Below, one piece after another: positions 18,076 through 53,687 of a stretch of DNA of 64,000 nt. Numbering within the stretch: the stretch's first letter is position 1; every line of letters starts with the position of its first letter. The notes beneath the pieces were generated by a model. That model made no database searches and was not told the origin of the DNA. It saw nothing but the letters and a program-made list of their open reading frames with translations. Position numbers and translations under genes: made by a program. This DNA is from a virus (taxonomy: Duplodnaviria; Caudoviricetes). The stretch is from IMG/VR virus record IMGVR_UViG_3300047565_000101, positions 1-64,000 of that record; one strand, 5' to 3'.

Positions 18076-18149
18076 TAGACCAGGTAGGACTTGAACCTAC
18101 GATAGCCGAATTATGAGTTCGGGGCCTTAACCAACTTGGCTACTGGTCC
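18076..18149 (-). tRNA. tRNA with CAT anticodon (elongator Met or Ile2)
   Basis: CCGAA-CT-CAT-AA-TTCGG; lacks initiator GGG/CCC stem. Confidence 0.9.
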
Positions 18150-37126: not shown

Positions 37127-37399
37127 TTATACCACGTCTTCCGTATTTTGAATAGCTCCCCACTTACCAAGCGGGCATGATGCATGCGGAAGCTTTGTCT
37201 TTTCAGTCATAAAACATCCACACTTCTTACATGTCTTTGTAAGCTGGATCAATGAAGGACAAGAAAGACATAGGTTATACCTATAGTCTCTTGTCTCATC
37301 ATCTACGTGCTCAATTTTAGGATTAATTAAATCCCAAGGACGTACAGAGTCTCCAGCATTCTTCTCTTTCCAAAGTTGCCAAGGTGACTTATCTGACAT
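37127..37399 (-). CDS. Cys-rich small protein (CxxC..CxxCGC..CP...W; DUF6171-like)
   Basis: CLSCP...CKKCGCFM...CPLGKW. Confidence 0.75.
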   Translation of the reverse strand: MSDKSPWQLWKEKNAGDSVRPWDLINPKIEHVDDETRDYRYNLCLSCPSLIQLTKTCKKCGCFMTEKTKLPHASCPLGKWGAIQNTEDVV

Positions 37400-37630
37400 T
37401 TATGCTCCAGGTGTAGGTTCTACTGGTGCTGTAAATTCACCAGTCTCTGCATTGTACCCTGAGCCGACTGAAATATTATGTGACTCAGACGCAAGCTGCT
37501 CTGTTACATTTAGAACGAGTGGATTACTCAAAAAAATTGAGGATAGTCTTTCATCTGTATGAAGAATATCAGCAACCTCTCCATCAACAATAAATGCTAG
37601 CTTGATTGGTGGTAATTCGTTTTCTGCCAT
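37400..37630 (-). CDS. Probable tail-fibre-associated protein
   Basis: Downstream of fibre; VGSGYN...FTAP; strong RBS. Confidence 0.65.
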   Translation of the reverse strand: MAENELPPIKLAFIVDGEVADILHTDERLSSIFLSNPLVLNVTEQLASESHNISVGSGYNAETGEFTAPVEPTPGA

Positions 37631-37679: not shown

Positions 37680-40280
37680 CTAGCTTGGCAGGATCTGTAA
37701 ATTGTCTACATAATTAGCCTCATTATAAGGGGTATGCATTTTAATAATTCCAGCTGCGACTCCAGATGTGCTAGATGATGGGGCTGACCCAGTAATAGAA
37801 AGCGTGTTTCCAATTTGAGTAGAGCCGTTAAATGCGCTAACTAATATAGAGTTTCCGCTTGTCACAAGAACTAGATTTGGAATATTAACGTATCCAGATG
37901 TGCTAGACGCTACTTGCAATGACCCCTCTTCTGATACAGAAGAGCCATTTGATTTATTTACTTTAATATAACTACTGTAGGTAGATCCAGCTACAGAAAC
38001 TATTGTATTCCATGAATATGTAGTAAAATTAGTTGGAGTACTATCTCTTGTAAACCACTGTTTTCCAGTTACTGTTGTAACTGAATTTGATCTTGTGCTC
38101 CAAGAATATGTTGTTGTAGCGGTTCCAGTAGTGCTTCTCTTATTCCATGAATATGTTGTGTAAGCTGGTGATGATGCTGACCAAAGAGTACCGCTGTAAG
38201 TAGTAGTTGACTGAATAACAGTATAAAAATAGGATCCTGGTGAGCCATAACATTCTCCACATCTAAGACCAACATCTGATGGTCCGTATGGGAGTGTTCC
38301 TGTGGATCCACAACTGCCTCTATTAAATACATACGAGCCACAAAAATAGGTAGTAGATGAAGTACATCCTGTAGAACATCTTTGTCCCTCATTATTTCCA
38401 TATGCAGGACAAGAGCTAAATCCACTAAAACTATCAGAGCATGTTGAAGGTACGGCTGGTGTATATACAGAGTTACATCCACAAACATCACCAGGACCAG
38501 TACCAGATGCTGGGCAACCAGTTGTATTTGATCCACCAGTCTGGTCGCATGCATAGCTTGTTGTTGTTGTAGAAGTACAGTTACAAGCTCCTCCAGGAGT
38601 TTGATTATTACTGTTCGTGCAACTTGACCCACTACTGCCTGGTTCTGTACAAGCATAGTATGTTGTTGAATAGTCAATGCAATTGCAGTATTGACCAGGA
38701 CCAGTACCAAATCCTGAGGACGGGCAAGCTGTACCTACTTCAGATAATGTTGTTGAACATGCATACTCAGAACCAGACTGTGATACGCATCCACATGCAT
38801 CACCAACGTTTGTTCCAATAGTAGGGCAGCCAGTTCTGTTTGAGCCACCAGTGCCAGTACAAGATGTTCCAGATGTAGAAACCTGATTATAGTATGTAGA
38901 TGCTGCCCACCATGAATTTGCAGAAGTTACCCAGAATGCAACTCCATACCCACCGCCATTATTAGGATAATTAAGCCCTCCTATTATGTCATACTTGCCT
39001 CCAGCTTCAATTGCCTGCATTGGATTATCTGTGTAGTTTGATGACACAGATACCGATGAGTATGCTCTATTATTTAATACTGCCCAATAACTTCCATAGT
39101 TTGACCTGCTTGAGTCATACTGCAATCCAGTACTAGTTGTTCCTAATCCACCACTTGCGTTGGATCTATTGAATGTATCGCTCATGTCATCTACATATGC
39201 AGTAATTCCTGGGGAGTAGTAGTAGTAATGAGTAACACCATCGAGTGCAGTTACATCATCTTGTGTATAGAATCTTCTGCTAATATAGGTAAAGTCAGTT
39301 TGTGTGATTGTTCTTGGTGAAGACACTGCAGCTACTGCTAAATCTGTTGTAGTACCACTGCTTGGCACAGATGCACTATTTAAATACACAAGTCTTGTAT
39401 CGACATTTAATGCATTGGAATAAGATCCTGGTGAGCCTTTGTATACGAGAGTTCCAAACTCACCTGTTCCACTTCCCTTTGTTGGGGCAGAATTTTGAGT
39501 AGGGGCAACTGGTGTATTTGTTGAGGTATTTAAAAGATATGCTGGATTTCCTAAATAGCCCTGATAAGTATTACTTACTCCAGTTATTGGTATAACCTTA
39601 AAGTCATAGCTTGTGCTAGGAGAAAGGCTGTCAATTGTTGTATTTGTGCCAGATATAACTTTACTGTAAACATAAGAAGAGTCTACACTTCTCTTATAAT
39701 AAACTAAATACTTTTGTGCATTAGGAGATGATGTCCAGCTAAAAGAAATATCAGTATATGTTATTGTGCCAACTGTTATTACAACATTTTCTGGCCCGTA
39801 TACTGAGGTTGAATCAGATTCATTTGTTGTAGTAGCAGATGGAGATGTTTTTGTAGCCTCGATTACAAATCTATACTTATTTTCAACATTTGGTGATACA
39901 TCAGATGGACTGTCGTCTAATTGATAAGTAACAGTTTCATATGAGCCAACTGATGGATTTACTATATCTAGCCCAGAATCAATTGTGCTCCATGTTGCAC
40001 CAGCATCTATGCTTTTTTCAAATCTATAGTTTAATACATCAGCATTTTCCCAGTGATAATATTTACCAGTTAATGTAATTAGCCATGAAGTTGAATTTGT
40101 GGACTGTGTAATCTCTGAGTCATCTGCTGTACTGGGAACAATTGTAGAGCTGAAGAATAGCTTCCAAGCTCCAGAAACCTTAAGATATCCCTGTGCCACA
40201 TTTTTCCATACACCATCAACTTTTAATTTAATTGAAGCTATGTTTTTCCAAGCTCCATCAACCTTTAGCTTAGCTGTCAA
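37680..40280 (-). CDS. Tail fibre/receptor-binding protein with FN3-like domain and nested Cys4 repeat insertion
   Basis: N-terminal KV(D/S)GxWK x3; LSPSTSYDFKV; six Cys4 repeats; TYSW repeats. Confidence 0.75.
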   Translation of the reverse strand: MTAKLKVDGAWKNIASIKLKVDGVWKNVAQGYLKVSGAWKLFFSSTIVPSTADDSEITQSTNSTSWLITLTGKYYHWENADVLNYRFEKSIDAGATWSTIDSGLDIVNPSVGSYETVTYQLDDSPSDVSPNVENKYRFVIEATKTSPSATTTNESDSTSVYGPENVVITVGTITYTDISFSWTSSPNAQKYLVYYKRSVDSSYVYSKVISGTNTTIDSLSPSTSYDFKVIPITGVSNTYQGYLGNPAYLLNTSTNTPVAPTQNSAPTKGSGTGEFGTLVYKGSPGSYSNALNVDTRLVYLNSASVPSSGTTTDLAVAAVSSPRTITQTDFTYISRRFYTQDDVTALDGVTHYYYYSPGITAYVDDMSDTFNRSNASGGLGTTSTGLQYDSSRSNYGSYWAVLNNRAYSSVSVSSNYTDNPMQAIEAGGKYDIIGGLNYPNNGGGYGVAFWVTSANSWWAASTYYNQVSTSGTSCTGTGGSNRTGCPTIGTNVGDACGCVSQSGSEYACSTTLSEVGTACPSSGFGTGPGQYCNCIDYSTTYYACTEPGSSGSSCTNSNNQTPGGACNCTSTTTTSYACDQTGGSNTTGCPASGTGPGDVCGCNSVYTPAVPSTCSDSFSGFSSCPAYGNNEGQRCSTGCTSSTTYFCGSYVFNRGSCGSTGTLPYGPSDVGLRCGECYGSPGSYFYTVIQSTTTYSGTLWSASSPAYTTYSWNKRSTTGTATTTYSWSTRSNSVTTVTGKQWFTRDSTPTNFTTYSWNTIVSVAGSTYSSYIKVNKSNGSSVSEEGSLQVASSTSGYVNIPNLVLVTSGNSILVSAFNGSTQIGNTLSITGSAPSSSTSGVAAGIIKMHTPYNEANYVDNLQILPS

Positions 40281-40281: not shown

Positions 40282-41670
40282 TTATGAAGTCCAAACTAAT
40301 AGCACATCGCCATTTGAGCTTCTATCTGTTAAATAAACACTGGAGTCAGCCGTAAATCCACCCTGTGTAATGGTATACATATTTCTAAGACCCCCTGAAT
40401 TAACATTTGCAGTACCAGCTACTTGAGCAGATTTTGCTACCTCAACCTGTCTTCCAGACTCATCTCCAAGATATACTCTACCCCCATTTGTTGAATCTGT
40501 TGTTAATATGTTTGTTCCAGCGATAAAATCTTTTATTTGGAAAGATGATCCAGTAGATGAGATTACAATGTCTGAGCTTAAAAATATGTTTCCTCCATTA
40601 ATCATAGAGATTGTTGCGCTATTACTAATTGAAATAAGAGCTCCGTCATCAGTAATCAACCAGCCATCTGTGTCAGATCCTATGTATCCAGATGTAGCAT
40701 TTACCGTACCAGTAATAGTTAGATCTGTTCCGTCCCATGTCATATTCTTATCTGTTGTTCCGACTTTAAATACACCAGTGTTATACCAATAATTGTCTGT
40801 ACCCATGTAAAGACCATCATTTGTACTGTTTACATTTGTTCCGATCTTCATGCTACCAGCCGACATATATCCGCTAAATTCTCCAGCTGTCGCTGTGATT
40901 GTTCCCTTAATTGAAAGATCGCCATTAGTGTCAAATGATAATATTGCGCCAGCTACTGTTCCGCCTGATCCAAATACTTCAAGAGGATTACCAGTTCCAC
41001 GAATAATTACGTGCTTGCCAGAGGTTGAACCTACTGTAATTGTTGAGCTTGAGCTAAGAGTTCCAGTTGCAATCTTGTCAGCTGTTACAGTTATAATTCC
41101 GCTATTAGAAACTTTGCCAACTCTTACTGGGTTTCCTGTTGCAGCAACTGCTGATGATGCGTCACCAGCTCTATTGAAAGCAACGATTTTAATATAGTAA
41201 TCAACATCATACGATATCGTTAGTGATCCATTAACAACTGTATCTACTCCTAGATAGACAGAGTTATTATTATTTGCAAAATCTAATACATCAACAAAGT
41301 TAGCACTAGGACCAGAATCTGCTGGTGTAAATGAAGAAGATGTGCCAATATAAATCTTTGCATAGTCAGACTGATTTGACTGATTTGCACCAGTTGAAGT
41401 CTTTCCATTCCAAGATACTTCAATTGCACCTAGGACTGGTCTTACCGTTGGTGTTGATGGGTCTGATGGTGCAGCTAGCTCTATCGCTGGGACTTCTACA
41501 TTTTTAACAGCTGACCAATTGCTAAATGTGCCATCTTTATATTTCCATCTAAATTGAATTGGGTATGCGTCTGCTACATCCGTTAGAGCAAGGTCAGTAA
41601 TAGTAACATTAAAATAGTTACCATTTTCAAATGACTCAGAGGTGTCTTTTAGCAGATCTTCATATGCCAT
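40282..41670 (-). CDS. Minor tail protein
   Basis: FN3-like N-part, ADKIATGT and beta-repeat fibre motifs. Confidence 0.75.
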   Translation of the reverse strand: MAYEDLLKDTSESFENGNYFNVTITDLALTDVADAYPIQFRWKYKDGTFSNWSAVKNVEVPAIELAAPSDPSTPTVRPVLGAIEVSWNGKTSTGANQSNQSDYAKIYIGTSSSFTPADSGPSANFVDVLDFANNNNSVYLGVDTVVNGSLTISYDVDYYIKIVAFNRAGDASSAVAATGNPVRVGKVSNSGIITVTADKIATGTLSSSSTITVGSTSGKHVIIRGTGNPLEVFGSGGTVAGAILSFDTNGDLSIKGTITATAGEFSGYMSAGSMKIGTNVNSTNDGLYMGTDNYWYNTGVFKVGTTDKNMTWDGTDLTITGTVNATSGYIGSDTDGWLITDDGALISISNSATISMINGGNIFLSSDIVISSTGSSFQIKDFIAGTNILTTDSTNGGRVYLGDESGRQVEVAKSAQVAGTANVNSGGLRNMYTITQGGFTADSSVYLTDRSSNGDVLLVWTS

Positions 41671-41671: not shown

Positions 41672-42574
41672 TTAGAACCCCAGCTCTAGCCTATACTCTA
41701 CATCTACTTGACGACCAGCCTGCTTTGTTAATACTGTAGACAAAACAGATCTACTTATTATTCCAAATGCTGGGTCAAATGTGTCCTCATCATTAATTCT
41801 AATTCCATCAAATCCAACAGAAGTCGTTCCGCCAGACTCTTCTATTTCTATCTTTAATTTAGATATTGTTGATTTGTCTGGTGTTCCATACGCAACAAGA
41901 TCTCCAATTGAAGCAGATGCTAGCTTATATCCAGTGCCAGAAGGAACCGTAAAGTCTAGAGTGTATCCATTTCCAGTTGATGTCTCAAAGTATAAAGTTA
42001 TTGCGGAAACGTAAGCATCATTCTTATAAAAAGCAATTGTTGCAGTATCATTTGCGCTGTATCCAGAGATATCTAATGTAGTGTTATAGGTATAGACATC
42101 TGCAGCCATTGTTGCCAGGCTATCTCCGATCTTTGCATTTGATGTAGTTAGAGTAGCAGTGTTTCCAACGCTATCCGTCCAATCAATTACATTATCAAAG
42201 TCTGCTAGGAACTTGCTATCATAGTTATTTGTTGTGGTTCTTACTGCTGGGTATAGACCGACTTCTGATATGACACCAGCCACATCCTGCGGAAGCGTTG
42301 TCTTATATACAACGGAATATGTAGTTGTATCATCAACTGTTCGTATGTCTGTGCTTCCAAATTCAATTGGGAGTCTATAGAATTCAAATCCTAACCTCGT
42401 ATCATTTTCTGTTGCGGTAGTTGGGTCTACTCCAAATGCTAGGTCTTTTCCTAGATTAGCGATATTGCCAGCTACAAAATTAGTTAAATATCTTTTACCA
42501 AACTTAGTAATTACATTTGGTGAGCGATAGATTTCTTTGCCATCTTCATAAAATATATATGTACCTTTAATCAT
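41672..42574 (-). CDS. Baseplate/tail protein
   Basis: NVITKFGK...ISEVGL; tail module position. Confidence 0.7.
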   Translation of the reverse strand: MIKGTYIFYEDGKEIYRSPNVITKFGKRYLTNFVAGNIANLGKDLAFGVDPTTATENDTRLGFEFYRLPIEFGSTDIRTVDDTTTYSVVYKTTLPQDVAGVISEVGLYPAVRTTTNNYDSKFLADFDNVIDWTDSVGNTATLTTSNAKIGDSLATMAADVYTYNTTLDISGYSANDTATIAFYKNDAYVSAITLYFETSTGNGYTLDFTVPSGTGYKLASASIGDLVAYGTPDKSTISKLKIEIEESGGTTSVGFDGIRINDEDTFDPAFGIISRSVLSTVLTKQAGRQVDVEYRLELGF

Positions 42575-42575
42575 A

Positions 42576-43013
42576 TTAAGCAAACGGATTGTAAATCCTT
42601 GCATCCACCCCCACTACATTTTCTGGAAAAGAAAACGAATTTCTTACCTTAATTACTGCTTTAGCCTTGCTGTTTCCAAGAGTATCCTTATATTGAGTAA
42701 CTACAATGCTCTCAATATCGGAAAGATCTGGCGTATCGGTTCTAGTTAAATATTCAGAAATATCCGACTCAGTAATTGTAGCATCTGTTTTGCTGGAAGG
42801 CAATCCTGGAGCTACTAAACTTGTTGGGCTAGAGAGGGATGACGATATTGGATAGGATGGCTCTGGCTGTCCTGCTACCTGGTTAGCATCTACAATTAGG
42901 ACCTTACTAGGATCCATCCATATTGATAGCCTACTGTCCTTTTTGATAATAGGCTTAGCAGCTTGAACAACTCTCGCTGCTGGTATTCTCTTATTATCTA
43001 TATTCTCTAGCAT
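42576..43013 (-). CDS. Tail-region hypothetical protein
   Basis: ORF track; leaderless start. Confidence 0.6.
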   Translation of the reverse strand: MLENIDNKRIPAARVVQAAKPIIKKDSRLSIWMDPSKVLIVDANQVAGQPEPSYPISSSLSSPTSLVAPGLPSSKTDATITESDISEYLTRTDTPDLSDIESIVVTQYKDTLGNSKAKAVIKVRNSFSFPENVVGVDARIYNPFA

Positions 43014-43037: not shown

Positions 43038-44732
43038 CTAAAGTGTTCTGCAAACAATACTTGTCTCCAATCCATCCTGATAGGAGTGTGATATTTCAGT
43101 AATTATAAACTTTGCAGTCTCAGAAATTCCTTGGTATGAATACTTAATTGAAATCATGTCTCCGACTGAAAGTAATGGGTTTCCAAATGTTGAAAATGAA
43201 ACAAGCTTGCTTTTATTAATGACAACAGACTTTATCCAATTTGCTAGATTTTTGACATCTGGCTCTGTTTGAAGCCACTGTGACTCAAATATAACTGGCT
43301 CTTGATTTGAAAAATCTGACTCTTCATCTGTTTTATATACTAGAGTTCCAGAATCTCCAATGCTATTGCCAAATACCATCAGCATATTTGTTCCGTTATC
43401 AGCAAGTGGCACAGTTGTAGAAGTATTATTTAGAATAAAAGCCTCTGCTCCAAAACTTGAAAGCTTTGATCCAATTATATTAACTGCATCATTTTCTCCA
43501 GATGACCAACCAATAGGGAACGAAGGATTTTCAAATCTTTGCTTAACATATGCAATTTCTCTAACCACTGATCCAAATTCTTCAACGACCTTCTTAGTCT
43601 TATATGTTGATATTGCGTCAGATGCGTTATTTGAGTTATACATCAAATTCCCGTAGGCTGTATCTAGTAGATCATTTGAGAACTGGCCCTTATAAAGATT
43701 AATATCTACATCTGTGGACAGGTATCTTGCTTCATCTATAGATGCTGCATAAACATAATCAAATGCCACCTTGCCCTTGATGGACATAACTCCAATTGCT
43801 TGAGTTGGTGCTATTATTGAATTTAGTGGCTCGCCTGCAGTGTATGAATTTGTGTCAGACGCTATTATCTTAAATCCATTAATAAATACTGTTATATTAA
43901 CTGCATCTCCACTGACCTTTACTTTAATATCTAGGTTATACGTGTTCCCGCCGTAAATTCCGTCAAAGATGTTTGCCTTGGCTGTCTGTGTGTCAGCTAA
44001 AACCTTAAGTCCAGAAGTAGTGGACTTGACTATGCGGACCGACTTTCTTCCTTGAGCACCAGATGATGCTGTGCTTTCTACAATTACATAGTAGCCAGAC
44101 TTACCTTCATTTGATAAAAAGAATCCTAGGCCTCCAGATTGGCTTGTTTCATTTTGGGCATTGTTCATAAATATACTTGTGCCAAATGTATAATAAGCAG
44201 GAGTATATGATTTAAGTATAGCCTGAGCCCATGTTGGGGCTGAGATAGAGGACTGTGTTGATGTCGTAGTATTTACTCCATCGAAGGATTTATAAGCCAC
44301 AGCAAATTCATTCTTTTTTCCGCCAGGATATGCTATCTCAAAATATGACTTAGCGCTAGTTAATTTTTGAGGATCAATACCACTTGATATAACAGTTCCG
44401 CCAAGAGATGTTGAGGATAGCTTATATTGCAATATGGTCTGGCTGTTTCCAAGCTGGCTTCCATTCTTGCCCTGTATTTTAAAGTTGTATATGCCGCCCG
44501 CTACAAGGCCCGTCACAGCCACTGGAAGGGCCGTAGCGTTGACTGTAATGGCAGAGCCTATGTTTGTACCAGAAGAATTAACCTGCTGGGCTGTAACCAC
44601 GTAGGCGGGTGCATCAACGGTAGCCATAAGCTTAACACTAGTTAAAGAATCTTGCTCATAAACAAATGCTGGTCCATCTGGATTATACGTTGAGTAATTT
44701 CCATCTTCGCCTGTTTCTACGATTATTGTCAT
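43038..44732 (-). CDS. Minor tail protein (hub C-terminal-like)
   Basis: GNPLLSVGDMISI...FIITEISHSY hub-type ending. Confidence 0.7.
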   Translation of the reverse strand: MTIIVETGEDGNYSTYNPDGPAFVYEQDSLTSVKLMATVDAPAYVVTAQQVNSSGTNIGSAITVNATALPVAVTGLVAGGIYNFKIQGKNGSQLGNSQTILQYKLSSTSLGGTVISSGIDPQKLTSAKSYFEIAYPGGKKNEFAVAYKSFDGVNTTTSTQSSISAPTWAQAILKSYTPAYYTFGTSIFMNNAQNETSQSGGLGFFLSNEGKSGYYVIVESTASSGAQGRKSVRIVKSTTSGLKVLADTQTAKANIFDGIYGGNTYNLDIKVKVSGDAVNITVFINGFKIIASDTNSYTAGEPLNSIIAPTQAIGVMSIKGKVAFDYVYAASIDEARYLSTDVDINLYKGQFSNDLLDTAYGNLMYNSNNASDAISTYKTKKVVEEFGSVVREIAYVKQRFENPSFPIGWSSGENDAVNIIGSKLSSFGAEAFILNNTSTTVPLADNGTNMLMVFGNSIGDSGTLVYKTDEESDFSNQEPVIFESQWLQTEPDVKNLANWIKSVVINKSKLVSFSTFGNPLLSVGDMISIKYSYQGISETAKFIITEISHSYQDGLETSIVCRTL

Positions 44733-46759
44733 GTCCAGCTTACCGTCCTTCCGTACCATCCATCCAGCTTATATACCGCTGGATCATGCTTTACCGCAGT
44801 GGTTCCAAGAGCACCTCTTGTTTTAATTAAATATCTACCACTAGGTTTAAAATAAGATGACCCAATTGGGTCGTCTGGGTTAGAAAAACCTGGCTTAGAT
44901 AAAGCTAAATACTTATTTGCATCTGCCATGCTCTTTAAGAACTGATGGGTCACTGTGCCGTCAAGCAAAACAATATCGTATCCAATTCCATCATACTCGA
45001 TAATCTCAGAATCAACTAATATGTATCCAGCATAATTAAAGAATTGAAGCTGAGAGCTGTAAGCATCCAGGGAGAATATATCTATAACAAACTCTGTGCT
45101 GTTTAATTCAATGGCATTCTTGAGAGATCCTGCGCTCAGATAGTTTACAGGTGATGTCCATAGGTCAGATGAGCTTTGTGTATAATTAGATACAATTGGT
45201 GTGTGCCATAATACCTGTACACTATTTGCAGATGCAATATCTTTCTTTGCAAAATCAGCAATATTTGGAAGGGTATCTCCATCTTGATCATATGTAAATG
45301 TCCAGACAGAAGATCTTCCGTCCTTATCATATAAATAGTCTCTGCTGTAGAACTGGAGGACATTGTATTCATCCATTACAGCATTCATTTGTATGTCTCT
45401 ACATAAAGCTTGAATAGCTTCCCATGCTGTGGTTCTATTGTCCGTCCACCAATATATAATTTGTGGAACAGATGTATCATTTGCCTTCAAGTTAAATTTA
45501 TAGTTTGTAAATCCAACGGAGTCTAGTAGATTTCTAAGAATCGCTGTTACTGGAAACTTCTCGCAAAGCAAATCTGGGCACAGGGTATCCATCAAATATT
45601 TTGTAGAATCGAGTCCAGTTACTCTTGTGTATCCATGCTCATCAATAGTAAAGGAGTCTGCATAGTAAACTCCATGTGGTGTAATATCATACTTAGATCC
45701 AGTTGACCCAAGGGCTCCATTTTCATGGTATGTCTTGATATAAGGAACAATCTCAGCATTCTTTGTCATGTAAATTAAAGAAGAGTCAAATGATGTGCTT
45801 TCTCTATTATATTCAATTATTTGTAATGCAGACTGATCGTACTTTGCTAATCCAATTTGAAGAGAGTTTGATGTAACCTTTCCAACTGGCAAGATATCTT
45901 CCGATGAAGAAGAAGATTCCTTTTTAACTGAGAATGATGCTATGTCGGAAGAAATATCCTTTATCCATCTAGCGGATATCTCTATAACTCCTACATACTT
46001 TCCTCCGCCTGGATTCGTAGCGGTAACACGAATTGACTTAATGGAAAGAGGTATATCAAAAGATAGGGTATTTTGATTTACCTCTGCACCGTCTACTGCA
46101 GTCCATGATCCACCAGATAAATATATATAAGCATACCCACTAGTTGGTGGGGTGCCAGCATTAACAACTGTTACAGTTGAGTTATCTGATTTTGTAATAA
46201 CTACTGTATACGCAGAAGGTAATGCGTGAAACTTTTCAAACTTGACTATAATCTTATTTACAAGAGCTTCTTTATTGCCAGCAGGAATATCTCCAGTCTT
46301 GCCAGCATTTGACCATGTTGTTGAAGTTTGCTTGTATTGTACAGTTAGATCTATATTTGTATCTTTTGCGCCAATCCAATATTTATAATTAACGCTTATT
46401 CCTGGGTAGTACACTCTAGCTTTTGAGTCCGATCTGCTTGATCCAAAATAATCAACAGTTCTATATGGAGTGTATGACGCTGTGTCAGTTGAAGACATAA
46501 CATAATATTTAGCACCAGAATAAACTGGTCTAAATGGCTTTACGATTGAATCTACTGGGAATAGCTTCTTGAATGGATTAGCGGTGCCTGTTGGCCAATC
46601 TGTAATCTTGCTAATATATGTGCTATCTGATGTTGCTGACGTTACTGTAATCCCGTCTATAATTGAATTCATATTTAATTCTAGGGTGCAGCCAAGGGAA
46701 GTCTTTACAGTTGTTTCATTCTTATAGATATTCTTAAGATTATCAGAGGAGGTTAGCAT
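44729..46759 (-). CDS. Minor tail / baseplate hub protein
   Basis: Position after distal-tail gene; AWEAIQALCRD..MNAVMDEYNVLQF. Confidence 0.7.
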   Translation of the reverse strand: MLTSSDNLKNIYKNETTVKTSLGCTLELNMNSIIDGITVTSATSDSTYISKITDWPTGTANPFKKLFPVDSIVKPFRPVYSGAKYYVMSSTDTASYTPYRTVDYFGSSRSDSKARVYYPGISVNYKYWIGAKDTNIDLTVQYKQTSTTWSNAGKTGDIPAGNKEALVNKIIVKFEKFHALPSAYTVVITKSDNSTVTVVNAGTPPTSGYAYIYLSGGSWTAVDGAEVNQNTLSFDIPLSIKSIRVTATNPGGGKYVGVIEISARWIKDISSDIASFSVKKESSSSSEDILPVGKVTSNSLQIGLAKYDQSALQIIEYNRESTSFDSSLIYMTKNAEIVPYIKTYHENGALGSTGSKYDITPHGVYYADSFTIDEHGYTRVTGLDSTKYLMDTLCPDLLCEKFPVTAILRNLLDSVGFTNYKFNLKANDTSVPQIIYWWTDNRTTAWEAIQALCRDIQMNAVMDEYNVLQFYSRDYLYDKDGRSSVWTFTYDQDGDTLPNIADFAKKDIASANSVQVLWHTPIVSNYTQSSSDLWTSPVNYLSAGSLKNAIELNSTEFVIDIFSLDAYSSQLQFFNYAGYILVDSEIIEYDGIGYDIVLLDGTVTHQFLKSMADANKYLALSKPGFSNPDDPIGSSYFKPSGRYLIKTRGALGTTAVKHDPAVYKLDGWYGRTVSWT

Positions 46760-47232
46760 TATACCTCTTCCAATGACATTGACACATTATAGTGAGCTTG
46801 AACTCCACGCTTTTGAAGTACGGAATTAAATGATGTGAATACAACATTGTACTCTTCGTATCCCGAAGACTCCTGATTTGTTCCGTCTTTTGCGTAGTTT
46901 ATTCTAATTCGGAAAGAATCTCTTCCTTCTGTACTCTTATAAAATGTTTTTAAATCTTCCGCTCCCCAATATCCATCTACAGTAAATTCTCTGTATGCTG
47001 GAAGTAGATCCCAAGAAACATCAAAGACAGCCTTATCAGCTACAAAATGCTTTCTTAGTGTTCCATTTGACATTCTTTGTGCATTTTCAATACGGTTATT
47101 ACCCTCAGTAAACTCTGATCTATTATGCTCTGAAACCTTATTAAACTGAAGGGTTGTTACAGGTGGGTTAGCCAATGGATCCTTTGCCTCGATTTGAAGC
47201 AATGTTCCTTTAGGTAGCGTTAAATAGCTCAT
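46759..47232 (-). CDS. Distal tail protein-like
   Basis: Follows tape measure; RMSNGTLRK...SWDLLP...SLEEV. Confidence 0.65.
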   Translation of the reverse strand: MSYLTLPKGTLLQIEAKDPLANPPVTTLQFNKVSEHNRSEFTEGNNRIENAQRMSNGTLRKHFVADKAVFDVSWDLLPAYREFTVDGYWGAEDLKTFYKSTEGRDSFRIRINYAKDGTNQESSGYEEYNVVFTSFNSVLQKRGVQAHYNVSMSLEEV

Positions 47233-50200
47233 ATTCTCTTGACCCCAGGCTTTCCTTCTGCTGCAAAATTAACATCCTTGATATTCTTCATAGCAGTAAT
47301 TGTCTTTCTTGTCACAACCTCAGAAAGCTGCTCCATGTTCATATCTGTTCCGCTAATATTATTTATAATTGTTATTCCACCCATTTTACCATTTGATGAA
47401 TTATTAGCAAGGCTTACTGAGTTAGATGCTAAATTATACATTGGCATATTAAACTTATGGGTTGGAATTATGTCGGCTGTCTGATTAAACTTAATAATCT
47501 CTGGGCCATTCTCTCCTACAAGGGCAACTGTTCCAGCCATTCCACGCATGCCGTTCCACCCCTTTGCCTTAGGAGTCATGCCCTTCTTTAATGTTTTTCC
47601 AGGCTCTTGATCTGTTCTATATCTAACACCAGTATTTGTTACAACATACTCTATTCCATTTTGTGTAACAAGTCTGTTTGCGATAGCCTTTGTTTCAACC
47701 TGTCCAGTTGTTGCAGATACGGTTGTAGTAGTAGTCTTTGGGCCATCTGTAACCTTTTTCCCAGTAAATGTTTCAACTGCTAATGTAAACGCATCTACTG
47801 CTTTATCAAACTTTGTTCCAGCCTTTGCGAGAGTCAAAGTTTCACTAGAAAGATCTGAGAATATTCTTTGGTATGGCTTACCCATATCATTTAAGTCGGA
47901 AGGACCTGGTGCAGACTTTAATCCACCAGGAGAATATTTCTTTTCCATTTCCATTGCTGCTGCCTTAAGGCTAGCATTCGAGCTAGACTTTGCATTGTTT
48001 AATACAGCTGCAATTTCTTTTCCAGCTTCCGCTGTGTACTTACCGCCATGCTTTGCAATTATAGAAGCTAGCTCGCTTGAAAGAGCTTCGGCCTCAGCTG
48101 CTACAGCTGCCTTATTTTCTGATGCGCTTTGTGAGGATGCAACTGCTTTTGCTACTGAGTCTTTCTGATCTTGTAGTCTTTGAATCTGATCCTCAAGCTT
48201 CTTAATATCTGCGTCGTACTTATCGTTAATAGACTGACGAGCGAGCTCTCTTTGTCTATCGGCAGAAAGCTGTTCTATTGAAAGCTTTTCTTGTGCAGCT
48301 TGAGCCAAGTTACCAGTAGCGAGTGCTTGCTGATATCTAATTTGAGCTTGCTTAACCTGTGTTTCAAAATTTTGTGACTTCTCTTGAATATCAAGTATTT
48401 CAAGTCTCTTGTCTCTTTCTTCCTCAAGCTTATCAATTAATTTCTGCTTAGCCTTAATCTGATCATCAATTGATTGTGAGTCCTGCTTAGCTGCATTATT
48501 TGCAGCCTTTGCAGCCTTATCAGCAGCAGCTCTTGCAGCAACAGCAACCTTTCCGATTGATGTCTGCTTATTAATAACTTTAGTAGCAGACTCACTAACT
48601 CTTTCATATCCAGCAGCAACATCAACAGCCTGATCTGGTGTGAGTAGCCCTATATCAACTGTTGTGCTTAATCCACTTAAGTAAAGTCTATACTTTGCAA
48701 ATACACTTAGAATTGTCTCTGCATTTCCAAGCATTGAACCAAGTGCTAGGTCTTGGCTCTTAAGCAATGTCAATGTATTTTGATCCATTGGAAGAGTAGC
48801 TGTTTTTGTTGCCTTTAACTTTTCAAAAGTTAGCTCTAATGACTTTGCCTGATCAACAACTTGTCCATCAACCTTAGTTCCTACAAGAGACTGTCTATAT
48901 GACTCAAAGCTACTAATTACATTATCTAGTCCACGCTGAAACTCTTCCGCATTAAATGTTTGTGGGTCTGAGAGCTGCTTTCCAAGCAATGACAATGAGT
49001 GTGTGGCAGCGCTTGACTTATCTATGATGGACTTAAATCCCTTTGATGATATGGCTGAGAATGCTTGGTTTGCCTTATCTGAGGCTGAAATAATTGTATA
49101 AATCTTATTTGTAGCTTCTTGAACGCTCATGCCCATTGCAACAAACTGAGCCTTCATTGAAGATGCTAAATCTACAACCTTGCTATCGTCTGCCTTATTA
49201 AAGATTGATACTGTTTCTTTTGCATTTTTCTTAGCAGATGCAATGCCTTCTTTAAGCTCCTTGATTGTTAAAGTTAATCCAGATACTCCAGAGCCACTGA
49301 ATGAATCGTAAGCTGTCTCAACCTTTGCCTTGCTTAGCTCAAGCTGCTTATTCATTTCCTTAATCTTATCTGATATACTTACATACTTTAAGCCAACTTC
49401 AGCAAGGGCTGACTTTGTTCCTCCGTACATTGCACGATTTACTTCACCTGCATCTTCTGCGCTCTTTCTCCACATTTGAAGACCCTTAACCATCATGAAT
49501 AAGGATCCGATAACAGCTCCTGGTATTGTTAGCCTACCGAGTATTGATGCAACCTTAGTTAAAGTAGGTAAGAATCCTCCAACCATCTTAAGTCCTGATA
49601 GCATTGGAAGAATATTAGAGGCAATCATAATTGCTGTTCCAGCACCACCACCGACTGCCTGGCCAGCTGCCATTCCAGCCATTCCAATTCCCATTTGAGT
49701 GCCTAGACCCATAGTAGGAAGGCCGTTACCAAACATGCTCTTACCATATGAATTTTTTAGACCAGCTCTATAAGCTCCAACTGCTCCACCAGCATTGTAA
49801 CCAGGAACCATTCCACCCTTATTTAGATGAATCATTCCTCCACGATTTCTCATGGCTCTTGAACCAGTTTTTCTAATAGCTGCGCCTATTGGATCAAAAC
49901 CAAGCTGCAATGACTTAAGAAGTCCGAATGAGCCACCTCTTCTTACGAGTGGCATTCCTACGTTTGTTTTTCTTCCAGCATGTGGTAAGAACTTATCTGG
50001 GAACTTAGAAGTATTTGGATTTCTATCCACTAGCTGTAATTCATCTATTGGAATATGAGCATAACTTAACTTCTTGCCATCTCTTTGTCCAGCTGGAACA
50101 GCTTGTCTTTGTGTTTCATAAGACAATCCATGCTCATTGGAGGTTATTGCTCTAGTAGCCTCATGTCTTATTTTAAATGGCTTCTGACCAGGAACCTTGA

Positions 50201-53200
50201 CTATAATATTATTTTCATTCTTTGGATCAGCAGCAAACTCTATTTCTTTTCCATACTTAGATGAAAGAGTAGATATTAGTGCACTTCTTCTTTGATCAAT
50301 TGTTCCTTCTCCAGGGAATGAGAATCTCATTGCACCAGTGCTGGCTAGTACCTTTATTGCATCTTTAGATAGGCCCGCCTTTAAGTAAGCTGCAGTTAAA
50401 TGCTTTCCAAATTGCATTTCAGTCAAAGGATCTTGAGGGTTGCCGATTGAAGATGACAATGAGCTTAATATAATGCTCTTTTGATCATCAGTGATTGATC
50501 CATAGCCAGCTTTACTCATTAACCTACTAGCCATATCAAAGGCACCTGGCTGAGAGAATTCAGACAAGAATGCTGCTCCAGGTATTCCTCTTCCACCACG
50601 TGTTGTTAAATTAGATTGACCATGCATCATTGGGTATACAGAATTCTGTAACATTGGGATGCTAATTCCTGCATGCTCCAAGAGAGCCATTACCTTATAT
50701 TGCTCGCCTCTGCCTAGCTTAGATGCATTGTTTAGTGCATCATAAACGCTTGTGTTATCCTTCTTTATAGCACCATTAGAACCAATATTATATCCTGGTC
50801 CAGTAGAGCCAGAACCATTAATTGCTTGAAGCAATGGCAGGTTAGCTCTTGTTGATTTAGCATTTACAACAAACTCTCCAGGAGTAAGCATAGCTGGAAC
50901 AACATCTGCATTTACATTTGGGCCTGGAACAATGTTGCCATCATTTAGTGTATAGACATATCCACCACTATTCAATCTCTTTGGCTTAGTTGTTTCGATA
51001 CTATAACCACCACCAGAAGTTCTAACGCCAAGAGCTCCTGCAATTTTATTAACTAAAGTAGAAGTAGAGGACTTATGGAAAAGCTCCTTCATATTTGACT
51101 TTCCAGTCTTTGGATCAATAACTGGCTGTGATGTCAATGGAACTGTTGTGAGATTTGCCACTCTTCCTTGAGAAATTGCTACAGCTTGTGTTGTTTCAAC
51201 AATCATTTTTTCTACAGCTATATTTAAATCAATAATCTTTTGTCTTGCGACATCAACCTTTATTTTGCCTGCCTGTAGATCTGCGACAATAAGAGATGCT
51301 TCTTGTGCAGCACCAGTTGTAATGTTAGTAATCTGTGGAAGAAGTGCTTGATAAGAAGCTGAGAGCTCTGATGTAATGGCACCAGTTGAAGCAACCTCCT
51401 TCTTAAGAACTGCAATTTCTTCCTTTGACTGCATTGCTAGGGCACCAGTCATAGAGTGCCACTTTGCAGCTTCCGCTGCAACTACTCCAACCGACTTGCC
51501 CTTTCTAGCTGTGACATTCTCAAATAAAGGCATGTCATCATTCATATAAACCTGCGGTGTTGCACCAAGATTTCTATTCAATGGAATTGGATTTGGGACC
51601 ATTCCGAATATAGTCTGATTCATCTTCTGCTGTTCTGTCATTCCAGAAACAGGGTTCATGTGTGCGCTTGCTCTACTTCCAGCTGGACCAATTAATGGGT
51701 GCTCTGGGTTAGCAACTCTTGATGCGCCTTGAATAATTGTATTACCTTGTACTGTAGATATAGTTGGCTGTACTGATACGCTACCAGATGCGGCTTTTTG
51801 CTGAAGGATTGTTAACTGATCATTTACACCCTGAAGAGCTGCCTTGAGAGCAAGTGCTGCCTCTGCATCGCTATAGAATGTCTTCTCAATTAAATCTCCA
51901 GCCTTTTGAGCTGCTACCATCTCTGGTGTTAATAATTTAAATCCTTCTCCACCCTTAAAGAGTGCCTTGAAGTGACCAATTCCCTTGATAATATATCCAA
52001 AGAAGTTTGCAAACACACCAGTTAACATAATAAGTGGACCAGCTAAAGCTGTAAATCCACCAATAATTGTAATAATATTTTTAAGAGGCTCAGGCATCTT
52101 ATTAATAAAGTCTAATACCTTATTAACAACTCCGATAATACTTGTTCCAATAGTAAGGAACTTATCTCCAACTTCCGCCATGTTTGCCTTGAGCGTTTCT
52201 AATGCTCTTGCATACTTACCTGCTGCCGACTCTGTTACTTGCGCTAATTCTCCAGTTGCTATCTGCTGAAGATCTGCTGAGCTTGCCTTCATCAAATCAA
52301 GAACCTGAAGTGTCTGGCTTCCTTGCTTTCCAAGATTCTCAAACAATGCGTTCATTCTTGAGAACTGGAACTTACCAAATAGCTGCTCAATAGCCTGCTG
52401 CTTTTGAAGCGGATTAAGCTTATCTAGTGCCCCCTGTAAATCTAATAATGTCTGCGTTACATTGCCAGCATTATTATTTACAATTCCAAGCAAGTCTATT
52501 CCAAAGCTCTTGAATTGTCCTACTGCAACCTTAGTTGGGTTAATGAGAGAAGCAAGACCAGACTTTAATGCGTTTGCACCTTCTGTTGCATTGATTCCGC
52601 CTTCACGCATTGCTGTTAGGTATAAAGCTAAGTCTTTTACATCTCCGCCAAGACCCTTTACTACTGGGCCAGCTTTTGGAATCGCTTCAACTAAGTCAGA
52701 AAGGCTTGTTGAGGTTTGGTTTTCAACTGCGTTAAGAAAGTTAATTGATTGAGAAAGCTCTTCTGTATTTTGCTTAAATGCGCTTTGAATAGCAAGAGTT
52801 GCCTTCATAGCCTCTTGCCTATCAACTTCACCAAGTACTGAAAGTCTAGTTGTTTCTTCTACCGATCTAAGTAGTTCATTTCCAGTCTTACCAGTTGCTG
52901 CAATATCTGCTGCAAGAGCAATAGTATCTTTAAATGAAACGCCCATTGATGCAGAAAGCTCTTTAGCTGTCTGAGATACATCGTCTCTAACCTTCTGAAG
53001 GTTTGTCGAGGAAGTCTTTGAAAGATCTCCGTAAACCTTAGTGAGTCTTGTTAATTCTTTATCTACTTCTCTAAATGCCTTTGCAGCTGCCATTCCGAAG
53101 CCAGCAATTGGCACAGTAAGTCCAACTGTAAGCTGTCTACCAGCCCACTGAGTATTCTTACCCCAGTTAATTAATTGAACTCCGCCATCTTGCACAACCT

Positions 53201-53687
53201 TGTTATAGATCTGCATTTCAGTTCTAGCAAGCAGCGTCTTATTCTTTATATTATCCAATCCCTTTGGGACATGGACATTAAACTTCATCATGCCATCGGC
53301 TGCCTTGCCTAATGGCTGTACTACTGCATTTTGTAATGCTACTTGCTGCTGAGCGAGATCTCTAATTAAACCGCCAGAGGTTCTGGTATGCTCTTGCCAT
53401 GTCTTAAAATAATCACGTAGCTTGAGCTTACCAGAATCCAGCTGTTTTCCAAATTTTTGTACATCATCTGAAACAGTAACAAAGTGTGTAGAGAATTGAC
53501 CAGTTGCTCTAAGAGTATCTCCTAGCGCCTTCTGTGCTGCATTTGCTTGTGATGCCAATGCTGTATTGGTCAAAGCAACTTGCTGCTTAAATTTAGCTAA
53601 TGCTGCCGAGGTTCGTTGCACATCTGCAATCAAACCTGAAAAGTCGGACGTTGCAACTATATTCGTTACAATTTGTTCATCAGCCAT
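47229..53687 (-). CDS. Tape measure protein
   Basis: 2152 aa, helical; TP901-type core; DVVPAMLTPGEFVVN; follows chaperones. Confidence 0.93.
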   Translation of the reverse strand: MADEQIVTNIVATSDFSGLIADVQRTSAALAKFKQQVALTNTALASQANAAQKALGDTLRATGQFSTHFVTVSDDVQKFGKQLDSGKLKLRDYFKTWQEHTRTSGGLIRDLAQQQVALQNAVVQPLGKAADGMMKFNVHVPKGLDNIKNKTLLARTEMQIYNKVVQDGGVQLINWGKNTQWAGRQLTVGLTVPIAGFGMAAAKAFREVDKELTRLTKVYGDLSKTSSTNLQKVRDDVSQTAKELSASMGVSFKDTIALAADIAATGKTGNELLRSVEETTRLSVLGEVDRQEAMKATLAIQSAFKQNTEELSQSINFLNAVENQTSTSLSDLVEAIPKAGPVVKGLGGDVKDLALYLTAMREGGINATEGANALKSGLASLINPTKVAVGQFKSFGIDLLGIVNNNAGNVTQTLLDLQGALDKLNPLQKQQAIEQLFGKFQFSRMNALFENLGKQGSQTLQVLDLMKASSADLQQIATGELAQVTESAAGKYARALETLKANMAEVGDKFLTIGTSIIGVVNKVLDFINKMPEPLKNIITIIGGFTALAGPLIMLTGVFANFFGYIIKGIGHFKALFKGGEGFKLLTPEMVAAQKAGDLIEKTFYSDAEAALALKAALQGVNDQLTILQQKAASGSVSVQPTISTVQGNTIIQGASRVANPEHPLIGPAGSRASAHMNPVSGMTEQQKMNQTIFGMVPNPIPLNRNLGATPQVYMNDDMPLFENVTARKGKSVGVVAAEAAKWHSMTGALAMQSKEEIAVLKKEVASTGAITSELSASYQALLPQITNITTGAAQEASLIVADLQAGKIKVDVARQKIIDLNIAVEKMIVETTQAVAISQGRVANLTTVPLTSQPVIDPKTGKSNMKELFHKSSTSTLVNKIAGALGVRTSGGGYSIETTKPKRLNSGGYVYTLNDGNIVPGPNVNADVVPAMLTPGEFVVNAKSTRANLPLLQAINGSGSTGPGYNIGSNGAIKKDNTSVYDALNNASKLGRGEQYKVMALLEHAGISIPMLQNSVYPMMHGQSNLTTRGGRGIPGAAFLSEFSQPGAFDMASRLMSKAGYGSITDDQKSIILSSLSSSIGNPQDPLTEMQFGKHLTAAYLKAGLSKDAIKVLASTGAMRFSFPGEGTIDQRRSALISTLSSKYGKEIEFAADPKNENNIIVKVPGQKPFKIRHEATRAITSNEHGLSYETQRQAVPAGQRDGKKLSYAHIPIDELQLVDRNPNTSKFPDKFLPHAGRKTNVGMPLVRRGGSFGLLKSLQLGFDPIGAAIRKTGSRAMRNRGGMIHLNKGGMVPGYNAGGAVGAYRAGLKNSYGKSMFGNGLPTMGLGTQMGIGMAGMAAGQAVGGGAGTAIMIASNILPMLSGLKMVGGFLPTLTKVASILGRLTIPGAVIGSLFMMVKGLQMWRKSAEDAGEVNRAMYGGTKSALAEVGLKYVSISDKIKEMNKQLELSKAKVETAYDSFSGSGVSGLTLTIKELKEGIASAKKNAKETVSIFNKADDSKVVDLASSMKAQFVAMGMSVQEATNKIYTIISASDKANQAFSAISSKGFKSIIDKSSAATHSLSLLGKQLSDPQTFNAEEFQRGLDNVISSFESYRQSLVGTKVDGQVVDQAKSLELTFEKLKATKTATLPMDQNTLTLLKSQDLALGSMLGNAETILSVFAKYRLYLSGLSTTVDIGLLTPDQAVDVAAGYERVSESATKVINKQTSIGKVAVAARAAADKAAKAANNAAKQDSQSIDDQIKAKQKLIDKLEEERDKRLEILDIQEKSQNFETQVKQAQIRYQQALATGNLAQAAQEKLSIEQLSADRQRELARQSINDKYDADIKKLEDQIQRLQDQKDSVAKAVASSQSASENKAAVAAEAEALSSELASIIAKHGGKYTAEAGKEIAAVLNNAKSSSNASLKAAAMEMEKKYSPGGLKSAPGPSDLNDMGKPYQRIFSDLSSETLTLAKAGTKFDKAVDAFTLAVETFTGKKVTDGPKTTTTTVSATTGQVETKAIANRLVTQNGIEYVVTNTGVRYRTDQEPGKTLKKGMTPKAKGWNGMRGMAGTVALVGENGPEIIKFNQTADIIPTHKFNMPMYNLASNSVSLANNSSNGKMGGITIINNISGTDMNMEQLSEVVTRKTITAMKNIKDVNFAAEGKPGVKRI

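What the first reader, a model, noticed from the sequence alone, without database searches (positions are those of the whole stretch)
37990..38880. Tail fibre with a nested out-and-back (matryoshka) Cys4 stalk
Seen: inside the C-terminal beta-domain are six tandem modules C-x8-10-C-x10-16-C-x1-3-C (24 Cys), followed by six short Cys-free strands (YFYTV, TTYSGT, TTYSWNK, TTYSWST, GKQWFT, TTYSWNT). Read in reverse order, the strands match the modules: the two most similar modules (1 and 4, C..TGGSN.TGCP..GT..GD.CGC) pair with the two TTYSWN strands. Inference: each domain is completed by a returning strand, forming an antiparallel telescoping arm that grows by insertion at its tip, a length-tunable receptor probe unlike ordinary trimeric fibres.
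Basis: partly seen in the sequence, partly recalled or inferred. Interest (0 to 1): 0.75.

Follow-up and report, generated by a model that had tools for sequence, protein, structure and literature searches.

The report
Nested disulfide-stapled stalk in phage fibre
The last tail gene of an uncultured phage encodes a sugar-binding-type head domain from which a thin arm, roughly 20 nm long by indirect estimate, of six disulfide-stapled modules runs out to a variable tip and back along six matching strands, a predicted shape with no solved counterpart whose length changes between relatives by paired gain or loss of modules and strands.

Summary
All 24 Cys of the 866-aa tail protein (37680-40280, minus strand) lie at aa 474-677 in six C-x9-10-C-x10-16-C-x1-3-C modules, followed by six Cys-free aromatic strands.

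The out-and-back reading is largely supported. In 33 regular homologues, module and strand counts match (3:3 to 8:8) across at least 8 changes of number on a tree. The Cys-free limb grows by 12 aa per module (r = 0.98). AlphaFold2 models the region confidently (pLDDT 87). The inner half (modules 4-6 plus strands 1-3) folds alone at pLDDT 95.7 with unchanged strands, so those strands pair with those modules.

The arm is an insertion in a ConA-like carbohydrate-binding sandwich. That sandwich resembles receptor-binding domains of mycobacteriophages TM4 and Douge. The arm itself has no solved analogue (best Z 2.9).

- The Cys are disulfides (C1-C3, C2-C4), not metal sites: 143 of 201 modules keep only C1 and C3.
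- Length changes by matched mid-stalk indels in both limbs, not by insertion at the tip.

The tip is the most variable part, so it is the likely receptor contact. No coordinates or contact map were available. Oligomeric state and function are untested. The scan also noted this same stretch in an overlapping window of this genome (e1-5842311).

The parts
37680..40280 (-). Whole gene, 866 aa (P0001), TTG start. It is the last gene of the tail module: tape measure 47229-53687, minor tail proteins 44729-46759 and 43038-44759, tail protein 41672-42604, and a 462-aa protein at 40282-41670.
40098..40280 (-). N-terminal segment aa 1-61 with three K-V-D-G-x-W-K-N-type repeats. It is shared with hundreds of proteins that carry other C-termini, so it is the likely attachment part.
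   Evidence: PHROG 25859, E = 2.2e-9; many hits cover only aa 1-260
39561..39782 (-). Weak fibronectin-III-like domain, aa ~167-240.
   Evidence: PDB sequence search, E 0.003-0.05, FN3 chains only
38883..39134 (-). First half of the ConA-like/CBM beta-sandwich scaffold (aa 383-466, ending in WWAAS). Its last strand continues into the stalk.
   Evidence: Conserved 'pre' HMM in 71 homologues; VIA: 4b1m_A Z 14.4, 9n6a_A Z 12.6, 8zdo_a Z 11.4
38343..38882 (-). Outgoing limb, modules 1-5 (aa 467-646). Each module has a linker strand, C1, a roughly 13-18 aa loop holding C2, then C3-x-C4. Module starts (C1) are at aa 474, 508, 544, 578 and 614.
   Evidence: AF2 DSSP strands at aa 456-476, 495-516, 531-551, 565-585 and 599-621
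38232..38342 (-). Tip module 6 (aa 647-683, spacing 9,16,2) with a 29-aa tip loop. It is the least conserved part among close homologues.
37983..38231 (-). Return limb, aa 684-766. It holds six Cys-free aromatic strands, modelled as an almost continuous extended strand running back to the scaffold.
   Evidence: DSSP strands at aa 684-700, 707-714, 720-745 and 750-778
37683..37982 (-). Second half of the ConA-like scaffold (aa 767-866, with G-I-I-K and D-N-L near the end).
   Evidence: 'cterm' HMM; VIA; hhalign to the in-genome paralogue, 97.5%
37127..37630 (-). Two small downstream genes: 76 aa (37400-37630) and 90 aa with six Cys (37127-37399). Both are conserved next to the fibre in the sister phage. 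Whether they belong to the feature is not shown.
   Evidence: Pfam DUF6171, E = 1.2e-4, below the cut-off; synteny and 83-94% identity in L003

Best explanation
The protein is the distal tail fibre or receptor-binding protein of a roughly 105-kb uncultured siphophage related to large Streptomyces phages.

Its C-terminal ConA-like carbohydrate-binding sandwich carries a 302-aa insertion between two neighbouring strands. The insertion forms a long, thin, out-and-back beta-ribbon arm.

On the way out, each 32-36 aa module contributes two short parallel strands. These are joined by a crossover loop and stapled by two disulfides (C1-C3 and C2-C4). After a tip module the chain returns as one extended strand. 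About 12-15 residues of that strand carry one T-T-Y-S-W-type aromatic motif and lie antiparallel against each module.

Because one module and one return strand span the same axial distance, their numbers must match. Length evolves by paired indels in the two limbs.

The conserved stalk presents a hypervariable tip about 20 nm from the lectin-like head. The tip is the probable specificity-determining contact with the host envelope.

Shown: the sequence layout, the co-variation of counts, the paired Cys loss, the variability of the tip, and the scaffold fold match.

Inferred: the 3D topology (AF2 only, no contact map seen), the disulfide chemistry, the length in nm, and the receptor-binding role.
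For: 1. Layout confirmed.

2. 71 homologues share the flanking scaffold halves around an insert of very different length, 128-555 aa among the 51 measured.

3. In 33 regular homologues, modules and strands number 3:3, 4:4, 5:5, 6:6, 7:7 and 8:8. Three of them scan as 8:7, one as 3:4. Cys-free limb length rises by 12.0 aa per module, r = 0.976. On a tree of the non-insert parts the number changes at least 8 times.

4. The sister phage (helicase 96% identical, scaffold 83-85%) lacks about 68 aa, two of modules 1-3, and 30 aa, two return strands in the strand 3-5 region (boundaries ambiguous because strands 3 and 4 are near-identical). Strands 1 and 2 and the junction to the scaffold (strand 6) are kept. 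This fits reverse-order pairing and rejects same-order pairing. P0166 (6:6) differs from P0012/P0013 (5:5) by one 32-aa module and one 13-aa strand.

5. AF2 of aa 380-866 gives pLDDT 87.3 with nothing below 50. Strands are long in both limbs and the return limb is nearly continuous. AF2 of aa 570-724 alone gives pLDDT 95.7, with all five models above 92 and the same strand pattern. Strands 1-3 therefore find their partners in modules 4-6.

6. Foldseek superpositions give rmsd 45-85 A for the 487-aa model and 17-38 A for the 155-aa unit. That is only possible for very elongated models.

7. All 201 parsed modules have either 4 Cys (58) or only C1 and C3 (143). P0006 lost exactly C2 and C4 of module 4 without any indel.

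8. Scaffold matches: CBM66 Z 14.4, TM4 gp23 receptor-binding domain Z 12.6, Douge gp23 BppU-CBM Z 11.4. The Douge domain binds mycobacterial glycans (PMC13033339).

9. Tip module 6 and strand 1 are the least conserved among close homologues (0.44 and 0.17, against 0.62-0.84 elsewhere). In the 5:5 clade the least conserved window lies in the tip cap.
Against: - No coordinates, PAE or contact map could be read, so strand pairing is deduced from DSSP, construct autonomy and rmsd, not seen directly.
- AF2 can be overconfident on S/T/G-rich repeats, and the alignments are shallow (18 and 51 sequences). pTM is only 0.51 and 0.65.
- Strand counting uses a hand-made motif score. Three 8-module proteins scan as 7 strands and one 3-module protein (P0130) as 4.
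- The period-3 duplication (modules 1 and 4, strands 3 and 6) fits both reverse pairing and a shifted forward pairing.
- Divergent family members have Cys in the return limb, local hairpins between modules, or no obvious return strands, so the rule holds for one large subfamily only.
- Disulfides would have to form in or after a reducing cytoplasm.
- No experiment bears on binding or on oligomeric state.
Confidence: 0.65

Rival explanations
1. The same out-and-back arm exists, but as part of an oligomer (dimer or trimer). There, return strands pair with modules of neighbouring chains, or several arms bundle into one shaft, as in the intertwined T4 gp37 needle.
For: Most tail fibres are trimers. 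Douge BppU, which carries the similar CBM, forms homodimers (PMC13033339). T4 gp37 runs out to a tip and back in a trimer (PMC6957217, plus established knowledge). B-type homologues have an odd Cys count, with one extra Cys at the stalk base, which could make an inter-chain bond.
Against: The monomeric inner unit is modelled at pLDDT 95.7 with all strands satisfied. There is no coiled-coil or trimerisation motif in the insert. Only 3 His are present, so there is no His-metal core. The oligomer test could not be run.
Confidence: 0.2
2. The Cys modules and the T-Y-S-W strands form two separate, side-by-side domains: a compact Cys-rich knot array and a small beta-meander. Their counts match only because both were copied by the same ancient duplications.
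For: Both repeats show a period-3 duplication. No contact map was available. Some relatives have Cys-rich inserts with almost no Cys-free tail.
Against: At least 8 number changes all keep equality, including recent ones between near-identical phages. The return limb is modelled as 17-29 aa continuous strands, not a meander of short hairpins. The models are far too elongated for compact domains. Many 'tail-less' relatives do have return strands that merely contain Cys.
Confidence: 0.08
3. The modules are Cys4 metal (Zn or Fe) sites that rigidify the stalk.
For: Four Cys per module with a C-x-C pair in this phage. A Cys-rich DUF6171-like gene lies downstream.
Against: 143 of 201 homologous modules keep only two Cys (C1 and C3). 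C2 and C4 are always lost together, and no 3-Cys module occurs in the regular subfamily. A virion protein is exposed to oxic water. There are almost no His.
Confidence: 0.05

Closest known systems
Carbohydrate-binding (ConA-like/CBM) receptor-binding domains of actinophage tails: TM4 gp23 C-terminal domain (PDB 9n6a) and Douge gp23 BppU-CBM (PDB 8zdo)
   Same: Same beta-sandwich fold for the two scaffold halves (Z 12.6 and 11.4, about 160 aligned residues). Same place at the distal tail of a siphophage with an actinophage-like portal and tail genes. The Douge domain binds host glycans.
   Different: No detectable sequence similarity. Here a 302-aa arm is inserted between two strands of the sandwich. 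The solved chains that aligned are only 311-367 residues long in all; whether they carry a smaller insertion at this site was not examined.
T4 gp37 long-tail-fibre tip (needle and head domains)
   Same: The chain runs out along a thin beta needle to a receptor-binding tip in the middle of the sequence and returns antiparallel. The tip carries specificity (PMC6957217; topology from established knowledge of the 2010 structure).
   Different: gp37 is an intertwined trimer held by seven His-coordinated iron ions. Here there are only 3 His, stapling is by disulfides, the unit is a tandem module with a one-to-one return strand, and the monomer model is self-sufficient.
Bovine ultralong CDR-H3 'stalk and knob' (analogy, from established knowledge)
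   Same: A beta-ribbon stalk grows out of two neighbouring strands of a beta-sandwich domain and presents a disulfide-rich variable tip.
   Different: The antibody stalk is a plain two-stranded ribbon a few nm long with disulfides only in the knob. Here the stalk itself is modular, disulfide-stapled and several times longer.
Rod-like disulfide-rich module arrays (TNFR and EGFR Cys-rich domains) and single-layer beta-sheet rods (SasG/Aap G5-E, OspA)
   Same: Elongated, core-poor rods built from small tandem units.
   Different: Those chains run one way only and have no return strand. None appeared in the fold search of the stalk unit (best Z 2.9), which does not exclude a distant likeness.

Membership tests
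ConA-like lectin / CBM beta-sandwich (scaffold only) | Two-sheet jelly-roll sandwich fold | tested here: met
   VIA: 4b1m_A Z 14.4, rmsd 2.8 A, 149 residues; 48 chains with Z of 8 or more, nearly all lectin, CBM or GH43_C2-type. Atlas structure rows for DUF1080 and GH43_C2 give TM 0.62-0.67 by target.
ConA-like lectin / CBM beta-sandwich (scaffold only) | Match to a curated sequence family | tested here: not met
   No Pfam hit at E up to 1. PDB profile search finds only weak FN3 elsewhere in the protein.
ConA-like lectin / CBM beta-sandwich (scaffold only) | Sugar-binding site and sugar binding | not testable with these tools
   No coordinates available and no assay.
Actinophage distal-tail CBM receptor-binding proteins (TM4 gp23, Douge BppU) | Structural similarity of the C-terminal domain, and location in the tail module | tested here: met
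   Z 12.6 (9n6a_A) and 11.4 (8zdo_a). It is the last gene after the tape measure and minor tail genes. The portal is 57% identical to Streptomyces phages.
Actinophage distal-tail CBM receptor-binding proteins (TM4 gp23, Douge BppU) | Sequence homology | tested here: inconclusive
   tblastn against 50,697 phage records gives no match at E up to 1e-5. Fold-level likeness only.
T4 gp37-type iron needle | Repeated His-x-His motifs coordinating Fe along the needle | tested here: not met
   Only 3 His in 866 aa, none in aa 467-766.
T4 gp37-type iron needle | Out-and-back chain path with the tip in mid-sequence | tested here: met
   AF2 models and the autonomy of the inner unit. This rests on prediction only.
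T4 gp37-type iron needle | Intertwined homotrimer | not testable with these tools
Cys4 metal-binding modules (zinc-ribbon-like) | Four conserved metal ligands per module | tested here: not met
   143 of 201 homologous modules have only C1 and C3. C2 and C4 are lost as a pair.
Known solved fold for the stalk unit | Any solved chain with a similar arrangement | tested here: inconclusive
   Foldseek against PDB gives no hit at E up to 1e-3. VIA against 48,161 representatives gives best Z 2.9 over 49 residues. The Atlas gives TM of 0.22 or less for aa 467-770.

The most novel reading that the evidence does not exclude
The stalk is a previously undescribed protein architecture: a nested, disulfide-stapled three-stranded beta-ribbon. 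Its length is set in quanta of roughly 4 nm by the number of module and return-strand pairs. It evolves by matched indels in two distant parts of the gene. Aquatic actinophages use it as an adjustable probe that carries a hypervariable receptor-binding tip through a thick host envelope.
Probability: 0.45. Interest if true: 0.8.

Novelty: new variant of a known kind. Interest (0 to 1): 0.68.

Why it matters
If the model holds, this is a new way to build a phage receptor probe. It would be a monomer-sufficient, modular beta-ribbon whose length is tuned by adding or removing a module on the way out and a strand on the way back. The specificity would sit in a small variable tip.

It gives a clear, testable case of two distant gene segments that must change together. 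It also points to a confidently predicted fold with no solved relative, and to a possible rigid protein spacer of programmable length.

For phage biology, it marks where host-range determinants probably lie in a large group of uncultured freshwater-type phages.

Tried and rejected
- **Sequence families.** Pfam found nothing for the fibre. PHROGs hit only an unknown family on aa 1-61. blastn and tblastn against the phage collection found no match. The PDB sequence and profile searches found only weak FN3.
- **Tandem repeats.** Tandem Repeats Finder found no DNA-level array.
- **Literature.** Searches for a described Cys-rich or solenoid fibre of this kind, and for DUF6171, found nothing relevant.
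- **First 'return limb' measure.** Taking the residues after the last Cys gave only r = 0.51 over all 51 proteins. Some relatives carry Cys after or within the return strands, so I replaced it with a module grammar plus a strand motif scan on the regular subfamily.
- **Direction test from duplications.** Using the module 1/4 and strand 3/6 duplication failed, because both repeats have period 3. The P0166/P0012 indel lies in the middle and also fits both directions.
- **Whole-protein search of the own genome.** It missed the paralogue. The paralogue was found by reading the locus and confirmed by hhalign.
- The Atlas fold library was not available. Model coordinates are not exposed.
- **Fold searches of the stalk unit.** Foldseek against PDB found nothing at E up to 1e-3 and VIA-wide gave best Z 2.9. 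This shows no known analogue was found, not that none exists.
- **Erv1/ALR sulfhydryl oxidase.** No match in the genome, but the control genomes did not ring either, so this is uninformative.
Full report
**Observation.** The finding lies in one ORF, window 37680-40280 on the minus strand, 866 aa with a TTG start. All 24 Cys of the protein lie at aa 474-677. Their spacings are six repeats of C-x9-10-C-x10-16-C-x1-3-C, separated by 7-11 residues. Six Cys-free aromatic strands follow at aa 684-766: YFYTV, TTYSGT, TTYSWNK, TTYSWST, GKQWFT and TTYSWNT. Modules 1 and 4 are the most alike at DNA level (72% over 65 nt). Strands 3 and 6 are 95% alike over 19 nt.

**Context.** The window is part of a 104.8-kb virus record judged 97% complete, with all genes on one strand. 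Upstream of the ORF lie a 2152-aa tape measure, two minor tail proteins, a tail protein and a 462-aa protein, so this is the last gene of the tail module. The portal is 57% identical to the portals of large Streptomyces siphophages, and a minor tail protein is about 26% identical to theirs. The genome has only about 39% G+C. A low-GC aquatic actinobacterial host is therefore an inference, not a result. The fibre has no Pfam family and no match in 50,697 phage records.

**A variable insert in a conserved scaffold.** Searches of the large protein collections found 405 relatives. Most share only the N-terminal 260 residues, as expected for an exchangeable fibre. Seventy-one also share two conserved segments, aa 383-466 and aa 767-866 of this protein. 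These flank an insert whose length ranges from 128 to 555 aa among the 51 measured. VIA-align places the two segments together as a ConA-like/CBM sandwich: CBM66 (4b1m_A) Z 14.4 at 2.8 A over 149 residues, the TM4 gp23 receptor-binding domain Z 12.6, and Douge gp23 Z 11.4. The Atlas rows agree. The Douge domain is a glycan-binding baseplate module (PMC13033339). A 294-aa paralogue with the same scaffold and a different 20-Cys insert lies just beyond the window.

**Counts co-vary.** I parsed modules with a Cys-spacing grammar: A = four Cys, B = C-x19-30-C. I counted return strands with a motif score. In 33 regular homologues the pairs are:
- 3:3 (one of the two 3-module proteins, P0130, scans as 3:4)
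- 4:4
- 5:5 (eight proteins)
- 6:6
- 7:7
- 8:8 (three of these scan as 8:7; at least one, P0011, holds a weak eighth strand)

The Cys-free limb grows by 12.0 aa per module, r = 0.976. On a tree built only from the non-insert parts, the module number changes at least 8 times, and the strand number follows each time.

**Direction of pairing.** A sister phage has the same gene order, a 96% identical helicase and an 83-85% identical scaffold, and it carries a 4:4 fibre. Against it, this protein has about 68 extra residues, two of modules 1-3. It also has 30 extra residues, two return strands in the strand 3-5 region; the exact boundaries are ambiguous because strands 3 and 4 are near-identical. 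The tip module, strand 1, the distinctive strand 2 and the junction to the scaffold (strand 6) are kept. Same-order pairing would require loss of strands 1-3, so it is rejected. Reverse-order pairing (2 with 5, 3 with 4) fits. A second recent case, P0166 (6:6) against P0012/P0013 (5:5), shows one 32-aa module and one 13-aa strand, both in mid-stalk, and is neutral on direction. In both cases there are two separate indels, not one contiguous indel at the tip. Growth by insertion at the tip is therefore not supported.

**Structure prediction.** AlphaFold2 on aa 380-866 with 51 aligned homologues gave mean pLDDT 87.3, pTM 0.51 and nothing below 50. In the outgoing limb, the stretch from C3-x-C4 through the linker to about eight residues past the next C1 is strand. 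The 13-18 residues around C2 form a loop. After a 29-aa tip loop, the return limb is almost continuous strand (aa 684-700, 707-714, 720-745, 750-778) and runs straight into the scaffold.

A continuous 26-aa strand spanning strands 4 and 5 excludes a meander of short hairpins. A C1-C3 bond requires the two short strands of a module to start side by side. The outgoing limb is therefore best read as staggered parallel strand pairs joined by crossover loops, with the return strand antiparallel beside them. That would be a three-stranded ribbon. This step is inference.

Coordinates are not exposed, so I tested the topology indirectly. The contiguous inner unit, aa 570-724 (modules 4-6, strands 1-3), was folded alone. 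It gave pLDDT 95.7, pTM 0.65, all five models above 92, and the same strand pattern residue for residue. Strands 1-3 therefore find all their partners within modules 4-6, as a nested arrangement predicts.

**Shape and novelty of the fold.** Foldseek found no solved match for either model. The forced superpositions have rmsd 45-85 A for the 487-residue model and 17-38 A for the 155-residue unit. Values like these need radii of gyration near 60-70 A and about 30 A. That implies a rod of about 20 nm for six modules, roughly 4 nm per module. This agrees with 12-15 extended residues per module. VIA-align against 48,161 representative chains gave a best Z of 2.9 for the unit, where unmatched models typically reach 7-8. 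The Atlas gave TM of 0.22 or less for the insert. BFVD holds six significant relatives, all uncharacterised proteins of uncultured phages.

**Disulfides, not metal.** Of the 201 modules parsed, 58 have four Cys and 143 have two. None has three. The two that remain are C1 and C3. This is clearest in P0006, where module 4 has spacings 21 and 13 without any indel, so exactly C2 and C4 were replaced. Pairwise loss points to C1-C3 and C2-C4 disulfides and is incompatible with a conserved four-ligand metal site. The protein has only 3 His, so a gp37-type iron core (PMC6957217) is also excluded.

**Likely function.** Among the five closest 6:6 proteins, conservation is 0.62-0.84 along the stalk and 0.67-0.71 in the scaffold. 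It falls to 0.44 in tip module 6 and 0.17 in strand 1. In the separate 5:5 clade, the least conserved 15-residue window (0.29) lies in the tip cap. The simplest reading is a conserved arm that presents a fast-evolving contact surface at its end, on a head domain of a glycan-binding type. Module number (3 to 8 or 9 among relatives) would set the reach. None of this has been tested experimentally.

**Limits.**
- The topology rests on AF2 secondary structure, construct autonomy and rmsd arguments. No contact map was seen.
- The alignments are shallow and the sequence is compositionally biased.
- The equality rule holds for the regular subfamily. Other relatives place strands between modules, put Cys in the return strands, or reverse the order of the two limbs. 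These cases are compatible with a two-limbed arm but were not analysed in depth.

**Verdict.** The metal-site and tip-growth parts of the interpretation are not supported. It is a new structural variant of a phage receptor-binding protein, with a stalk fold that has no solved counterpart.

Noticed in passing
G000:C1 64643-65527 (-), = L002:2644-3528 (-), just beyond the window end: A 294-aa paralogue made of the same scaffold (G-I-A-F-W ... S-W-Y-A-A before, G-I-V-K near the end) with a different, roughly 100-aa, 20-Cys insert. It lies next to a 579-aa Laminin_G_3 protein and fibre-like genes.
   Followed up: partly
window 37127-37630 (-): Two small genes lie directly after the fibre: one of 76 aa, and one of 90 aa with six Cys and a weak DUF6171 match (E = 1.2e-4, below the cut-off). 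Both are kept next to the fibre in the sister phage, at 83% and 94% identity. A role in fibre folding or oxidation is only a guess.
   Followed up: partly
homologues P0031, P0028, P0029: Some relatives have three-Cys modules (C-x13-17-C-x2-C) together with single-Cys strands (T-x-Y-T-C) in the opposite limb. In P0031 the strands come first and the modules return, four of each. This parity hints at cross-limb disulfides and at a swapped limb order.
   Followed up: partly
homologues P0103, P0123, P0135, P0179: Very long inserts (up to 555 aa, 48 Cys) carry local hairpins of the type Y-S-Y-P-I-R...T-T-T-Y-S-C between modules. They also have six-Cys modules containing C-C pairs, so they may be branched or differently nested variants.
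   Followed up: no
B-type homologues such as P0012, P0014, P0021: These have an odd total Cys count, because of one extra Cys right after the W-W-S-A motif at the base of the stalk. It could be free or form an inter-chain bond.
   Followed up: no
window 1270-2089, 10114-10274, 17680-18149: Ten tRNA genes (Gln, Tyr, Ser, Trp, Leu x2, Asp, Asn, Arg, Met), all on the minus strand.
   Followed up: no
window 5948-6238 (-): A phage-encoded thioredoxin (PF00085, E = 2.1e-28). No link to the fibre was shown.
   Followed up: no
window 60881-62461 (-) and the genome overall: The portal is 57% identical to Streptomyces phages of the BillNye/Jay2Jay type, yet the genome has about 39% G+C. This suggests a low-GC actinobacterial host, perhaps aquatic.
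   Followed up: partly
L002:9968-11227 (-) and 5027-9910 (-): A 419-aa protein has FN3 repeats, a long Pro/Phe/Tyr tract and a Hint-like end. It is followed by a run of 2OG-oxygenase-like genes.
   Followed up: no
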